A stretch of DNA of 29,900 nucleotides, taken from contig CAVPGK010000028.1 in NCBI GenBank assembly GCA_963703955.1, forward strand, positions 1 through 29,900. Direction: 5' to 3'. Below are positions 1,775-29,900 of the stretch, one piece after another (the stretch's first letter is position 1; each line of letters starts with the position of its first letter). The notes under the pieces were generated by a model. The model searched no databases. It worked only from the letters and a program-made list of their open reading frames with translations, and had not been told where the DNA came from. The position numbers and the translations under genes are program-made. The DNA is from Nitrospirota bacterium (lineage in GTDB: Bacteria; Nitrospirota; Nitrospiria; Nitrospirales; Nitrospiraceae).

Positions 1775-2191
1775 TCAGGTACCGACCACACGTAGTCCGC
1801 TGGCCTTGGCGGCAATGGCCAGCGCACCGTCGTGGGTGGTCATCACAAGATCCGCACCCGTCCGCTCCCGCCATAGCAGGGCGGTCGCCAGATGGATCGC
1901 ATCCAGAGTCCCAAGCGCGGTGGGGAGTGGTTGAGCGGCCCGCGCAAGAACGGGACGGGTCAACTCGATGACTTCAATCGCCTCGACCAGCCGGAACACG
2001 GCCTCTCGCCGCATCGCGATCTCATCGTCCCGTAACCCTTCAGCGAGACGCAGCCGGTCCAGCGTGCGCAGACACTCGACCTCTACCAAAGCGGAAGCAA
2101 CCCCTTGCTCGATGATTCGCCACTCTTTGAGGGCATTCGCCTGACCGAGGACGACGCGCAGCAGGACCGAGGAGTCGAGATAGGCAATCAC
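1775..2191 (-). CDS. vapC: VapC-family PIN-domain toxin
   Basis: YLDSS, VEVEC, TLDAIHLATA and THD PIN motifs; start overlaps the antitoxin stop. Confidence 0.9.
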   Translation of the reverse strand: MIAYLDSSVLLRVVLGQANALKEWRIIEQGVASALVEVECLRTLDRLRLAEGLRDDEIAMRREAVFRLVEAIEVIELTRPVLARAAQPLPTALGTLDAIHLATALLWRERTGADLVMTTHDGALAIAAKASGLRVVGT

Positions 2192-2451
2192 CGCTCGCCC
2201 TGCCGTTCCTCCAACAGGAGCGACACAATGTCCCTCCGCAATCGCAGTGGCGGCGGCAGCGTCACACGGCTGAGCTTCGGGGCCCCCGGCAGAGGTGAAC
2301 GCACTTTAAGCGAGGCGCCGTCCTGCTCATAAGGCAGAATACGCGCAATGGGGGTGTCGCGATCCAGTACCGTGAGGCTCCGGCCGCTCCGGACCTTCCT
2401 CAGGTACTCGCTCAGACGACTCTTCAGATCGGCGATGCGAACAGTGTTCAT
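2188..2451 (-). CDS. Phd/YefM-family antitoxin
   Basis: MNTVRIADLKSRLSEYLRKVRSGRSLTVLDRDTPIARILP is a typical Phd N-terminus. The true start is ATG at 2451, not 2592. Confidence 0.88.
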   Translation of the reverse strand: MNTVRIADLKSRLSEYLRKVRSGRSLTVLDRDTPIARILPYEQDGASLKVRSPLPGAPKLSRVTLPPPLRLRRDIVSLLLEERQGER

Positions 2452-2486
2452 GGCTAGATAATAGTCAAAACTGGTCACGAACGCAA
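2452..2486 (-). promoter_or_regulatory. sigma70-type promoter, leaderless start of TA module 1
   Basis: Minus strand reads TTGCGT-17 nt-TATTAT-6 nt-ATG, with no SD. TGACCA/TGACTA direct repeat in the spacer may be the operator. Confidence 0.65.
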
Positions 2487-2585
2487 TAGAACTATCTCTA
2501 TGAGATCGTGCCGGTGAGGTGGCTCCTGAGACGACAAAATTTCTGACACCACTTCCGGTCTGCCAAACCGGGCTAAAAAACTTTC

Positions 2586-2613
2586 TTGACATAGAGCCCT
2601 ATATCGATAAGGT
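2586..2613 (+). promoter_or_regulatory. sigma70-type promoter, leaderless start of TA module 2
   Basis: TTGACA(2586)-16 nt-TAAGGT-7 nt-ATG(2621); no SD. Confidence 0.55.
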
Positions 2614-6939: not shown

Positions 6940-6971
6940 TTGACAGCTAGATGTGTGGGCTGATACATATT
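6940..6971 (+). promoter_or_regulatory. Probable sigma70 promoter, leaderless start of TA module 3
   Basis: TTGACA at 6940, AT-rich TACATATT at 6964-6971, ATG at 6977; no SD. The -10 register is imperfect. Confidence 0.45.
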
Positions 6972-6976
6972 CCCAT

Positions 6977-7222
6977 ATGAAAACAACTGTGGAGATATCT
7001 GATGCCCTCCTGAAGGAGGCCAAACGAGTCGCCTCCTCGGAACATACGACTGTCCGGGCGCTTATCGAGCATGGTCTTCGTCGAGTTCTGGCGGAACGCA
7101 AACGCGTGCGCACCTTTCGCCTCCGGAAGGTGACATTCAAGGGGCAAGGCCTCCAACCGAACCTGGATGCCGGCGCCTGGGACCGGATTCGTGACCTCGC
7201 CTACGAAGGCCGCGGGGCATGA
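6977..7222 (+). CDS. vapB: VapB-type antitoxin (MKTT.. RHH family)
   Basis: MKTTVEISDALLKEAKRVASSEHTTVRALIEHGLR...YEGRGA; ATGA overlap with the toxin. Confidence 0.87.
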   Translation: MKTTVEISDALLKEAKRVASSEHTTVRALIEHGLRRVLAERKRVRTFRLRKVTFKGQGLQPNLDAGAWDRIRDLAYEGRGA

Positions 7223-7653
7223 TTGCCCTGGATACCAACCTCCTTGTATACGCCCATCGGGAAGACTCCCCCTGGCACAACAAAGCGTACGCCCAGATCC
7301 TTAATCTGGCTGAGGGCCGTTCATCGTGGGCCATTCCCTGGCCCTGTCTGCACGAGTTTCTCGCCATCGTCACCCACCCTCGGATTTACAACCCTCCGAC
7401 TTCCTTAGGCGTGGCCATTGACCAAGTCGAAGCGTGGCTTGAAACCCCCAACCTCACAATCCTGTCGGAAGGCGATGGGTATTGGCCTGAACTCCGCATC
7501 ACGCTGGAGAATGGCCAGGTCATTGGCCCCCAGGTGCACGATGCCCGGATAACTGCGATCTGCCGATTTCATGGCGTACGGGAACTGTGGACTGCTGATC
7601 GGGACTTCAGCCGCTTCCCCGGCCTCCTTGTCCGCAACCCTCTCATCAATTAG
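7219..7653 (+). CDS. vapC: VapC PIN-domain toxin
   Basis: MIALDTNLLVYAH, HEFLAIVTHPRI, HDARI and WTADRDFSRFPGL motifs. Confidence 0.92.
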   Translation: MIALDTNLLVYAHREDSPWHNKAYAQILNLAEGRSSWAIPWPCLHEFLAIVTHPRIYNPPTSLGVAIDQVEAWLETPNLTILSEGDGYWPELRITLENGQVIGPQVHDARITAICRFHGVRELWTADRDFSRFPGLLVRNPLIN

Positions 7654-18075: not shown

Positions 18076-18118
18076 TGGAGCCGGCGACTGGGCTCGAACC
18101 GACCTGCGGTTTACGAAT
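18076..18118 (-). repeat. Displaced degenerate tRNA-Thr(CGT) 3' half (att site)
   Basis: Minus strand ATTCGTAAACCGCAGGTC-GGTTCGAGCCCAGTCGCCGGCTCCA; 24/25 identical to 29873-29897; begins at the anticodon loop TTCGTAA. Confidence 0.85.
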
Positions 18119-27790: not shown

Positions 27791-28105
27791 ATGAAATTAA
27801 CACCGTTGCACGATTGGGTATTGATCCGGACCGGCGAGCCAAGCGAGAAGAGTGCCGGCGGCATTATCATTCCCGACACCGCGCAAGAGAAACCGGAGGA
27901 AGGAGAAGTCCTCGCCGTGGGGACAGGTCGCTTTGTCGAGGACAAGGACTCTAAGGAGAAAATCAAGAAGAAGACATTTGTGAAGACCACCCTCAAGCCG
28001 GGCGAGCATGTCCTGTACAAAAAATACGCCGCCAGAGAAGTGGAGGGCAACGACGAAGAGTTGGTGCTGGTTCGTGAAGAGGATGTCTTGGGTTATCTTC
28101 GGTAA
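27791..28105 (+). CDS. groES: 10 kDa co-chaperonin, no adjacent groEL
   Basis: MKLTPLHDWVLI..EKSAGGIIIPDTAQEKPEEGEVLAVGTG..LVREEDVLG; AAAGGA RBS. Confidence 0.93.
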   Translation: MKLTPLHDWVLIRTGEPSEKSAGGIIIPDTAQEKPEEGEVLAVGTGRFVEDKDSKEKIKKKTFVKTTLKPGEHVLYKKYAAREVEGNDEELVLVREEDVLGYLR

Positions 28106-28568
28106 TTGACATTCTTCACAGAAAGAGAAGAATTCCTGGACCCATGCGAGCGCGTGCCGACCCACCACCACGGTCCCACAGTGCAACTGCTTGGCTGCCT
28201 CAAGGACCTCCCGGACGACATTCGGCCTATGGATCGATGAAGAAAAGTGAGTGCTGATATGGTGTTGCGAAACGCCGTGATCCCCGAGAATTGTCTGATT
28301 GATGGTGAGAGAGTCCTGAGCAGCTTTCTTCGCCTTCTCTATCCATTCAGCCTGAGCGGTTTTGAGTTCTTTGCTCAGCATCCGCTCCTTTTAAGGATTT
28401 TCTGATCCCCCGAATTCTAAGAGGCTGGGGGGAATGGGAGGAAGCACATGGAACAGACGTATTTGGATATGCTCACGTCCGCGCACCATCTGGGACACGT
28501 ATGTGACGGCTTTCGTGGAAAGCCTCAGAATCGTCGGTGGCGATGAGAATTTTATTGATTCTTTCCAC
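28106..28568 (-). pseudogene. Universal stress protein pseudogene
   Basis: GTG 28568 RINKILIATDDSEA, frameshift, STKAVTYV..LFHVLPPIPPSLLEFGGSENP*KERML..GTVVVGRH. Internal TAA; 3' end lost next to the groES stop. Confidence 0.78.
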
Positions 28569-28661
28569 GGCTTCGCTCGCTCATCAACGGATGTTCTTGT
28601 ACCGGGATTCCCAACAGAGGCTAGGCCGTCGGTGGGGGGGTGTCAAGGTTCAGGGTAGGGG

Positions 28662-28690
28662 TGATCTGCCCCCAGATGTTAGGCCACCGT
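28662..28690 (+). mobile_element. Possible solitary IS3-family terminal repeat
   Basis: TGATCTGCCCCCAGATGTTAGGCCACC resembles IS3-type ends (5'-TG..CTGCCCC). No partner or transposase seen. Confidence 0.3.
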
Positions 28691-28784
28691 TCAAGTTCCC
28701 TTACGCCGACTGATCCAACGCCGGAACAGGAGACCACCCGCCACTGGGATTCAGTGAGCTGTCCTGACGGGACACCTCCACCGA

Positions 28785-28812
28785 TTGACCTCTCGCGAAG
28801 GACGGTTATCTT
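28785..28812 (+). promoter_or_regulatory. sigma70-type promoter of the candidate ncRNA
   Basis: TTGACC(28785)-16 nt-TATCTT(28807); predicted start ~28819 is the first base of the closing stem. Confidence 0.55.
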
Positions 28813-28818
28813 ATAAGT

Positions 28819-28976
28819 GAGCGGAGGCCTCGGTGAGAGGAACACTCAAGGACATCGAGGTCGGGTGTAGGGGCGGTGAGCAGGCCCGCCGGTAATGAGC
28901 GGGAAGCCTAAAACCCCTCCAAGACCTCCATAATCGACACAGAGCTCTCTGGACCCGCCTCCGCTCCGCTTTTTTT
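28819..28976 (+). ncRNA. Candidate rod-shaped structured RNA (6S-like architecture)
   Basis: Eight nested stems in order, a 10-bp perfect closing stem, a central bubble, an upstream promoter and a T7 tract. No plausible ORF. Confidence 0.5.
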
Positions 28977-29872
28977 GATCCCACAGCACACGTGCCTCTC
29001 CCACACCCGCTGGTAGTGGTATTTTTGAGACCGATATCGAGGACACGGCTCCCCACAAACTGATCAGCCTTTATCCATTCCTATGTGAGGCAGGAATCCA
29101 CACACACGAAGGAGCCTGCTACCACCTTACATATACGCTTGTGGAGGGAGTCAAAGAGGAGAGGCTTACAACAAAAAACGGCCCGTCCTTATGCGGATCA
29201 CCGGGTCTGTCGACTCGTCGGAATCATGTCCGGCAACCCTTCAGTCACCTACGTTGGTTGCCCCGCGCCGTGGTCATCGGGCTCGCATTGACGGCCATGC
29301 CTACTGGCATCGAGCGACACAGGCGCGTACCTTGAACCACAATCCCGCCACTGAAGCAGAGACGGTGCCCTTTTGCACGTTGGCGGCATAAGGGCGAGTC
29401 AAAAACTTCACAAGGCTGCTGACCTTCACTGAGCGATCAACACCTCCTTCAATTTTGGATTAACCATCCTCTCCTCGAAGTCAACGAGCTCGTGACGGCC
29501 AATCACTGTAGACAATCACCTCACTGGGGGTGAAGTTCTATTATTAGGCTGTGTCGTTCTCGTAGTGCGCGCTTCTACGCGGAATGCGACATGCGGTCAA
29601 GTGGAAAGGAAGAAGACAGTAGAGCAGTGCAGTGGAAATACCAGCATATGAACCGAAATCGAACTGAAGTTGATGGGAACAGTCGACCCACGGAAGACTC
29701 GAATCCCCGCCGCGAGTGATAAAGTACAATGTCCCCGTTTTTTAATCCTCTTGGCGGGAACTTTTTCCCACTCCAGGCGTCTTAGCGGTTGAACGGGCCA
29801 ATTTTAAAATCCTGGATCAACGCCAAGAATGACTACTGAATTGAATAGAGTTAAATGTAACGTATTGAATTC

Positions 29873-29900
29873 TGGAGCCGGCGACTGGACTCGAACCAGC
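29873..29900 (-). tRNA. 3' end of a tRNA (T-arm, acceptor 3' strand, CCA), probably tRNA-Thr(CGT); rest lies outside the window
   Basis: Minus strand GCTGGTTCGAGTCCAGTCGCCGGCTCCA. Thr identity is inferred from the GCCGGC-U acceptor and the CGT loop in the att copy. Confidence 0.8.

What the first reader, a model, noticed from the sequence alone, without database searches (positions are those of the whole stretch)
28785..28976. Unannotated self-contained rod-shaped RNA gene (6S-like) inside the island
Seen, nested pairings in perfect order: GAGCGGAGGC 28819-28/GCCTCCGCTC 28957-66; GGT 28832-34/ACC 28953-55; GAGAG 28835-39/CTCTC 28945-49; CTC 28845-47/GAG 28942-44; then an asymmetric bubble (AAGGACATC 28848-56 opposite CATAATCGACACA 28929-41); GAGGTC 28857-62/GACCTC 28923-28; AGGGG 28869-73/CCCCT 28914-18; AGG(C) 28882-85/(G)CCT 28906-09; CCCGC 28885-89/GCGGG 28899-903 closing a 9-nt loop. 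A TTGACC-16-TATCTT promoter puts +1 on the first stem base, and T7 follows the stem. Known: a long hairpin with a central bubble is the 6S RNA open-promoter mimic, usually ~180 nt in conserved chromosomal context. Inference: this shorter, island-borne RNA among stress genes (groES, usp, treY) may be a second 6S-like RNA-polymerase decoy or a new sRNA class. Several GGA motifs leave a CsrA-sponge role open.
Basis: partly seen in the sequence, partly recalled or inferred. Interest (0 to 1): 0.8.

Follow-up and report, generated by a model that had tools for sequence, protein, structure and literature searches.

The report
Second 6S RNA under heat-shock promoter
This is an extra copy of 6S RNA, the bacterial RNA that blocks RNA polymerase by imitating a promoter; in these nitrifying bacteria the extra copy appears to be switched on together with heat-shock genes, and it usually lies next to a second, undescribed structured RNA.

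Summary
The element is real: a ~148-nt RNA gene (28819-28966, +) with a covarying rod and central bubble. It is a paralogue of 6S RNA, not a new class. A model built from it finds the genome's Rfam-positive core 6S full length, and both share the 6S apical motif. The genome holds three accessory copies plus one core copy. Accessory copies occur in 53 of 100 Nitrospiraceae genomes. Homologues appear in metatranscriptome contigs.
Two things are new. (1) The accessory promoter differs from the core sigma70-type one and matches RpoH (sigma32) spacing. A matrix trained on it ranks grpE, clpB, htpX, groES and two hsp20 upstream regions in the top 0.31% of 3207 and finds the motif before grpE in 26 of 27 relatives. 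(2) A ~277-nt covarying RNA without Rfam match (R2, 29174-29450, -) lies beside it, with the same promoter type; 48 of 60 R2 loci have this 6S within 1.5 kb.
Best reading: a stress-induced decoy of sigma70-RNA polymerase. Sigma assignment, polymerase binding and R2's function are inferred, not shown.

The parts
28784..28811 (+). Promoter of the accessory 6S: -35 ATTGAC (28784-89), 15 nt, -10 GTTATCT (28805-11). RpoH-type spacing; in this copy it also fits sigma70 as TTGACC-16-TATCTT
   Evidence: RpoH consensus from a passage of PMC4843759
28819..28966 (+). Accessory 6S RNA gene (6S-2), ~148 nt; +1 inferred at 28817-28819
   Evidence: homologue contigs in RNA libraries at 28827-28974
28819..28839 (+). 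5' strand of the closing stem (pairs with 28945-28966)
28840..28856 (+). 5' strand of the central bubble; C28843 followed by conserved A28844 is the inferred pRNA start template (initiation with GTP)
   Evidence: GAACA in 44 of 51; start site inferred by analogy with passages of PMC8414754
28875..28912 (+). Apical 6S signature GGUG.GCA.GCCC ... GGGAAGCC (by analogy the sigma region 4.2 contact)
   Evidence: 47 of 51 accessory and 20 of 21 core sequences; matches the RF00013 consensus
28929..28944 (+). 3' strand of the central bubble
28970..28976 (+). U-tract after the closing stem (terminator-like)
   Evidence: T-rich in most homologues
29174..29450 (-). R2: second structured RNA, ~277 nt, convergent with 6S-2. 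5' single-stranded leader with a Shine-Dalgarno-like GGAGGUG, ~225-nt branched rod, U-tract; no Rfam match
   Evidence: homologue contigs in RNA libraries over 29169-29300
29457..29485 (-). Promoter of R2 (GTTGACT ... GGTTAATCC), same type as that of 6S-2
   Evidence: (score 15.6)
27794..28105 (+). Neighbouring groES (Cpn10), without groEL; its upstream region lacks the motif
29873..29900 (-). tRNA-like 3' end cut by the contig end; 25-nt direct repeat at 18076-18100 suggests an ~11.8-kb integrated segment holding both RNAs

Best explanation
The element is an accessory paralogue of 6S RNA (6S-2) of Nitrospiraceae. Shown: it folds as a rod with a central bubble; it carries the 6S apical motif at the same distance (30-31 nt) from the inferred pRNA start as the core 6S; it is homologous to the core 6S; and it has a different promoter, shared with chaperone and protease genes. 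Inferred: under heat or proteotoxic stress the genome's RpoH (sigma32) transcribes 6S-2. The RNA mimics an open promoter and binds the housekeeping sigma70 holoenzyme, which damps growth-related transcription and favours the sigma32 programme (a feed-forward loop). On recovery, pRNA synthesis starting with GTP at C28843 would release the polymerase; the core copy would start with ATP. The unit moves and duplicates within accessory stress-gene regions, usually with R2, which is co-regulated and probably acts in the same shutdown response by an unknown route.
For: Homology: model R1, built from accessory copies only, hits the core 6S over all 155 positions at 78 bits, with no other hit in the genome besides the three accessory copies. 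The core copy passes the RF00013 cut-off (49.1 vs 46.4). Eight accessory loci score 29-44 bits on RF00013. Structure. Geometry: 30-31 nt in 48 of 51 accessory and 30-32 nt in 21 of 21 core sequences. Promoter: spacer 16 in 44 of 47 accessory vs 17-18 in 20 of 21 core; T at the fifth -10 position 44 of 47 vs 1 of 21; sigma70's sixth-position T 23 of 47 vs 21 of 21. This matches CTTGAA/CTTGCC-N15-16-CCTATAT/CCTATCT for S. meliloti RpoH1/RpoH2 (PMC4843759). A matrix trained only on 6S-2 and R2 promoters ranks upstream regions of grpE, clpB, htpX, groES and two hsp20 in the top 0.31% of 3207; it finds the motif before grpE in 26 of 27 relatives vs 0 of 27 control stretches; the 21 core 6S promoters score at most 10.7 (gene names). 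RpoH is encoded (NF005143 266.5 > 241) just upstream of that groES. HrcA was not found (genome 82% complete). Neighbours of accessory copies: Usp at 6 and Hsp20 at 4 of 36 loci, otherwise variable; core copies lie by a topoisomerase VI-B/HATPase gene at 10 of 17. RNA libraries: homologue contigs in 3 of 4 runs laid.
Against: The window copy itself has no Rfam match, even at E 10. No polymerase binding, pRNA, start site, strand or stress induction was measured; one search used contigs, mostly from relatives, found by small shares. Genome-wide the matrix gives no more hits than shuffled DNA (15 vs 14 at score 15 in three contigs, one shuffle); the signal lies in where the hits fall. 7 of 13 chaperone/protease genes tested lack the motif (two hsp20, the window's groES, two lon, hslV, cbpA), as does rpoH itself (some start coordinates approximate, some may be inside operons). 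Five of the six positives were first noticed in the top-hit list. About half of the accessory promoters, including this one, also fit sigma70. The genome has RpoS-like and group-2 sigma factors too, and the latter has the motif upstream. The conserved GG at pRNA position 4/5 or 5/6 noted in PMC8414754 is absent from the inferred pRNA. The tree does not resolve which family is ancestral.
Confidence: 0.6

Rival explanations
1. It is a 6S paralogue acting on the sigma70 holoenzyme, but its promoter is read by another factor (the RpoS-like or group-2 sigma, or sigma70 itself), so it is a general-stress or stationary-phase dosage booster and not part of an RpoH regulon.
For: The genome encodes RpoS-like and group-2 sigma factors; the group-2 gene has the motif upstream; 23 of 47 accessory -10 elements keep the sigma70 sixth T; neighbours include Usp, TreY, MscL and ferritin-like genes.
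Against: The motif marks classical heat-shock genes (grpE, clpB, htpX, groES, hsp20) and has RpoH spacing.
Confidence: 0.2
2. 6S-2 has switched specificity and binds the RpoH holoenzyme, forming a negative feedback loop that ends the heat-shock response.
For: It forms a sequence family apart from the core clade (core 100/100), with fixed differences in bubble and stems, and is co-regulated with the heat-shock genes.
Against: The apical motif and the 31-nt spacing equal those of the core 6S. Passages of PMC11077062 and PMC13492112 describe 6S as binding mainly the primary-sigma holoenzyme.
Confidence: 0.12
3. A new sRNA class or CsrA sponge unrelated to 6S.
For: The window copy has no Rfam match; it contains GGA motifs.
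Against: Full-length homology to the core 6S; no CsrA found in the genome (82% complete); the conserved GGA words lie in stems or in the 6S signature.
Confidence: 0.03
4. A MITE or other small mobile repeat.
For: 10-bp terminal inverted repeat; three copies in the genome; variable neighbours.
Against: Only 1-5 copies per genome at 72% mean identity; internal covariation; conserved external promoter; the C11 copy shares ~160 nt of upstream flank; no flanking direct repeat reported at seed 8.
Confidence: 0.02

Closest known systems
6S / SsrS RNA (Rfam RF00013)
   Same: Rod with central bubble; apical motif matching the Rfam consensus; homologous to the genome's over-cut-off copy.
   Different: ~148 nt, below the ~160-nt Aquifex RNA named among the shortest (PMC9130861 passage); scores under the Rfam cut-off, so it is unannotated; patchy (53 of 100 genomes), up to 5 copies; variable context; non-sigma70-type promoter.
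Second 6S copies: Bacillus subtilis 6S-1/6S-2, Legionella 6S2, B. cereus-group tandem genes
   Same: Two paralogues in one genome with different expression (PMC3048289 and PMC8414754 passages; PMC7726162 listing). B. subtilis paralogues differ in pRNA start nucleotide, GTP vs ATP (PMC3753640 passages), as inferred here for accessory (G) vs core (A).
   Different: No heat-shock-sigma promoter or partner RNA was seen for those copies in the passages read. Here the paralogue is accessory, multi-copy and linked to R2.
Ms1 (~300 nt, binds RNAP core) and CoRP RNA, as analogues for R2
   Same: Length class, rod-like fold, association with an RNAP-decoy locus (PMC9130861, PMC11077062 passages).
   Different: No Rfam match; R2 has a branched tip and a 5' SD-like leader; found in 0 of 125 Nitrospirota genomes outside this family; binding untested.
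RpoH (sigma32) regulon promoters of alphaproteobacteria
   Same: -35/-10 spacing and TATCT ending; target genes grpE, clpB, htpX, groES, hsp20.
   Different: -35 TTGAY and -10 preceded by G/GT instead of CC; not validated in Nitrospirota (no such paper).

Membership tests
6S RNA (RF00013) | Long hairpin with central bubble supported by covariation | tested here: met
6S RNA (RF00013) | Conserved apical motif as in the family consensus | tested here: met
   47 of 51; alignments
6S RNA (RF00013) | Homology to a recognised 6S gene | tested here: met
   model R1 hits the core copy over 1-155 at 78 bits; core copy over the cut-off
6S RNA (RF00013) | Rfam gathering score 46.4 (a curation threshold, not a biological definer) | tested here: not met
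   window copy no hit; eight accessory loci 29-44 bits; only 17 of 151 family genomes have any copy over the cut-off
6S RNA (RF00013) | Abundant discrete transcript | tested here: inconclusive
   homologue contigs in 3 of 4 RNA runs, adapter ends at 28827-28830 in two studies; contigs give no strand, level or true ends
6S RNA (RF00013) | Binds the primary-sigma RNA polymerase holoenzyme | not testable with these tools
   needs gel shift or RIP-seq
6S RNA (RF00013) | Templates pRNA from the 5' bubble | not testable with these tools
   a candidate site with conserved adjacent A exists; no small-RNA reads available
RpoH regulon | Promoter motif shared with chaperone and protease genes | tested here: met
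   6 of 13 such genes; grpE 26 of 27 relatives
RpoH regulon | RpoH encoded in the genome | tested here: met
RpoH regulon | Transcription depends on RpoH and is heat-induced | not testable with these tools
   needs experiment
CsrB/RsmZ sponge | csrA in the host and repeated GGA in hairpin loops | tested here: not met
   no CsrA match (genome 82% complete); one terminal loop without conserved GGA
MITE | Many near-identical copies with target-site duplications | tested here: not met
   three copies at 82-84%; no flanking repeat
Ms1 / CoRP (for R2) | Match to a described family | tested here: not met
Ms1 / CoRP (for R2) | Binds RNAP core | not testable with these tools
   needs experiment
Large SRP RNA / tmRNA (for R2) | Match to RF01854 or RF00023 | tested here: not met
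   SRP RNA lies elsewhere; the tmRNA model does not hit any R2 copy

The most novel reading that the evidence does not exclude
6S-2 and R2 form a movable two-RNA cassette of the heat-shock regulon. 6S-2 parks the sigma70 holoenzyme, while R2, an undescribed ~277-nt RNA class with a start-codon-less Shine-Dalgarno leader (a divergent subfamily keeps an 11-codon ORF with a proline pair), parks a second machine (RNAP core or the 30S subunit). Transcription and translation would then be throttled together by RNA decoys under one stress sigma factor.
Probability: 0.25. Interest if true: 0.85.

Novelty: new variant of a known kind. Interest (0 to 1): 0.62.

Why it matters
6S RNA is usually described as a growth-phase regulator, and why some bacteria keep several copies is open. 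A paralogue wired to the heat-shock promoter gives a testable answer: division of labour by sigma factor, with a stress sigma suppressing its housekeeping competitor through an RNA. The same motif outlines a candidate RpoH regulon for Nitrospiraceae, key nitrifiers. The locus also exposes R2, a covarying, family-wide RNA absent from Rfam. Both RNAs occur in a named Nitrospira defluvii record (FP929003), so they can be tested in culture.

Tried and rejected
Rfam scans of the window and of the element gave no match of weight; same for R2 and 20 loci with divergent R2 copies. Single-sequence folding z-scores were unremarkable for both RNAs (-1.78, -1.31, -1.71). No match in plasmids, phages or IMG/VR. 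In one search the stretches 28400-28802 and 28989-29143 had no cover; this is not used as evidence, because the contigs come largely from relatives and those stretches are poorly conserved. A protein-coding reading of R2 was rejected: lengths fall in all three frames (15/15/12 of 42) and no start codon is conserved behind the SD-like word in this subfamily. An early idea that 6S-2 has a shorter stem fitted to sigma32 was rejected: the spacing equals that of the core 6S (the core distances printed came from a mis-anchored pattern and were discarded). The tree could not root the two families or show the accessory set to be one clade (3 changes, long-branch warning). ARAGORN's tmRNA call is a tRNA-Ser and RF00023 found no tmRNA (genome 82% complete). 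Three look-ups of earlier scan findings returned nothing. The 6S survey of Wehner et al. 2014 is not held.

Full report
Observation. The pairings, promoter-like hexamers and T-run are as described. One sequence alone does not prove the fold (z -1.78 on +, -2.86 on -), and Rfam finds nothing in the window. The host is a Nitrospiraceae bacterium, judged by the titles of the nearest TreY relatives; its assembly G000 has 3.3 Mb and is 82% complete.

Copies and homology. The genome holds two more copies (C11, 84% over 320 nt including ~160 nt upstream; C16, 82%) and a separate 6S gene on C10 that passes the RF00013 cut-off; the C16 copy scores 36.2 bits. I extracted 59 accessory and 42 core candidates. 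Dropping one truncated row and rows over 93% identical left 52 and 21; one accessory row with a long insertion was also left out, giving A1 (51) and A3 (21). The accessory set is biased to relatives of the query. A model from A1 finds exactly four places in G000: the three accessory copies (140-171 bits) and the core copy, full length, at 78 bits. At E 1e-20 it finds accessory copies in 53 of 100 family genomes, up to five per genome. Among 25 family genomes of a phylum sample, 24 have a match and 13 have an accessory-level one (my count). An exact-pattern scan of GTDB gave over 119 loci; of the 80 listed, 76 are titled Nitrospira/Nitrospirota, 3 'uncultured bacterium' and 1 Gaiellales. On a tree of 91 rows the core copies form one clade (100/100) apart from the accessory ones; the root is unresolved.

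Structure. A1 gives a closing stem, a ~17 x 16-nt central bubble, an interrupted inner stem and a short terminal hairpin: 97.5% of cells paired, 18 of 36 pairs with double changes, 0 of 500 shuffles, slid controls 35-56%. The apical motif of the Rfam consensus is in 47 of 51 accessory and 20 of 21 core rows. By analogy with passages of PMC8414754 (conserved A next to the pRNA start), the start template would be C28843 (GAACA in 44 of 51) and a U in the core copies (AATA/AATG 19 of 21), at the same 30-32 nt from the motif. Accessory pRNA would begin with G and core pRNA with A, recalling B. subtilis 6S-1 and 6S-2 (PMC3753640, passages). This is inference.

Expression. Of 19 RNA runs with small shares, four from four studies were laid at 82% likeness. 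Three have contigs over 28827-28974, one piece with no difference, and adapter ends at 28827-28830 in two studies. All four have contigs from 29169-29206 towards the end of the stretch at 29300. Contigs show presence in RNA libraries, not strand, level or true ends.

A second RNA (R2). That cover led to 29174-29450 on the - strand. From 63 hits, 49 full-length unique rows and then 42 under 90% identity were aligned. The fold is a branched rod behind a ~50-nt leader: 96.1% paired, 39 of 62 pairs with double changes, 0 of 500 shuffles, slid controls 35-50% (structure predicted from the same alignment). It has no Rfam match and no conserved frame. Its model hits 54 of 100 family genomes and 0 of 125 genomes of other Nitrospirota families; G000 has three copies. 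By hand, taken to be the same 100 genomes: both RNAs 45, 6S-2 only 8, R2 only 9, neither 38 (kin are not independent). 48 of 60 R2 loci have 6S-2 within 1.5 kb, always upstream of R2 in 6S orientation (36 convergent, 12 tandem; two of the 48 are partial matches); 41 of 80 6S-2 loci have R2; 0 of 42 core loci do. A divergent subfamily with sigma70-like promoters keeps SD plus an 11-codon ORF, MTPPDKxxP(L/P)L, in 10 of 10 rows.

Promoters. Core 6S genes have TTGAC, 17-18 nt, TANNNT. Accessory 6S and R2 have TTGAY, 16 nt, TAYCT preceded by T (49 of 51 and 40 of 41 could be anchored). This is the spacing given for S. meliloti RpoH (PMC4843759, one passage). A matrix from 85 such promoters gives no genome-wide excess over a shuffle (15 vs 14), but 15 of its 26 best hits, five of them training sites, are intergenic against 14% background. 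Of 16 genes tested, 7 rank in the top 0.31% of 3207 upstream regions (two hsp20, grpE, clpB, htpX, groES, a group-2 sigma) and 9 do not (names). Before grpE the motif scores 13 or more in 26 of 27 relatives and in 0 of 27 control stretches (from 30 loci, less the own genome, one unpublished genome and one too short). RpoH is present; HrcA and CsrA were not found. Passages of PMC545781 describe sigma32 control of such genes in delta-proteobacteria.

Context. Core copies mostly lie beside a topoisomerase VI-B/HATPase gene (10 of 17; not in G000). Accessory copies have changing neighbours, with Usp (6 of 36) and Hsp20 (4 of 36) recurring (two ORFs per locus scanned). In the window they lie after treY and a lone groES, inside an ~11.8-kb segment bounded by a 25-nt repeat of a tRNA-like 3' end. 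Nothing similar was found in plasmids, phages or viral contigs.

Mechanism. Shown: 6S fold, motif, spacing and homology; a distinct promoter shared with heat-shock genes; linkage with R2. Inferred: RpoH reads the promoter (about 0.75); the RNA binds the sigma70 holoenzyme (about 0.8); pRNA releases it. R2's role is unknown; a decoy for RNAP core (like Ms1) or for 30S subunits (SD-like leader) is my guess.

Literature. Second 6S copies are known (PMC3048289, PMC8414754 passages; PMC7726162 listing only). PMC13492112 (passages) assigns a 6S promoter to an ECF sigma in Cupriavidus, so alternative-sigma control has a precedent. PMC9130861 and PMC11077062 (passages) describe Ms1 and CoRP. Searches (listings only) showed no paper on Nitrospira 6S paralogues, an RpoH-driven 6S or an RNA like R2. 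The library lacks most subscription papers and Wehner et al. 2014, and I read no supplements; either could list these genes. The tallies include the unpublished genome G281 as one row; no alignment or conclusion rests on it.

Verdict. Real, conserved RNA gene; a new variant of a known kind (6S), made more interesting by its heat-shock-type promoter and an undescribed partner RNA.

Noticed in passing
window 29174-29450 (-); also G000 C11:176995-177259 and C13:148063-148347: R2, a ~277-nt covarying RNA without Rfam match, in 54 of 100 family genomes, linked to 6S-2 and sharing its promoter type; deserves its own study.
   Followed up: yes
L485, L487-L495: Divergent R2 subfamily with sigma70-like promoters and a conserved SD plus 11-codon ORF MTPPDKxxP(L/P)L ending inside the first stem; a few synonymous changes suggest translation, and the proline pair could stall ribosomes.
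   Followed up: partly
G000 C15:23133, C11:295726, C16:152286, C16:149578, C11:150798, C18:14717, C17:169471: Candidate RpoH regulon of Nitrospiraceae (hsp20, grpE, clpB, htpX, groES, a group-2 sigma factor) defined by the TTGAY-N15-TTATCT motif.
   Followed up: yes
window 18076-18100 and 29873-29897: 25-nt direct repeat of a tRNA-like 3' end, suggesting an ~11.8-kb integrated segment; no integrase seen among scanned ORFs.
   Followed up: partly
window 27948-28129: The 3' part of the lone groES is 98.9% identical to C11:183513-183695, near a tRNA-Ala and 6 kb from the C11 6S-2/R2 pair: recent duplication or an assembly artefact.
   Followed up: no
L446, L447, L449, L464, L465: Genomes of another Nitrospirota family also carry two or three 6S-like genes of two sequence types.
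   Followed up: partly
window 1775-2592 and 6953-7653: Two type II toxin-antitoxin pairs with PIN domains (Phd/YefM-PIN and VapB-PIN), plus MscS, MscL and glycoside hydrolase genes: an osmotic-stress-flavoured region.
   Followed up: no
window 28661-28780: About 120 nt upstream of the promoter is conserved in the C11 copy and partly at C16:186484-186532; not examined.
   Followed up: no
L342: One 6S-2 pattern match on a contig titled Gaiellales: mis-binning or transfer, not checked.
   Followed up: no
G000 whole genome: No tmRNA found by ARAGORN or RF00023; probably unassembled.
   Followed up: partly
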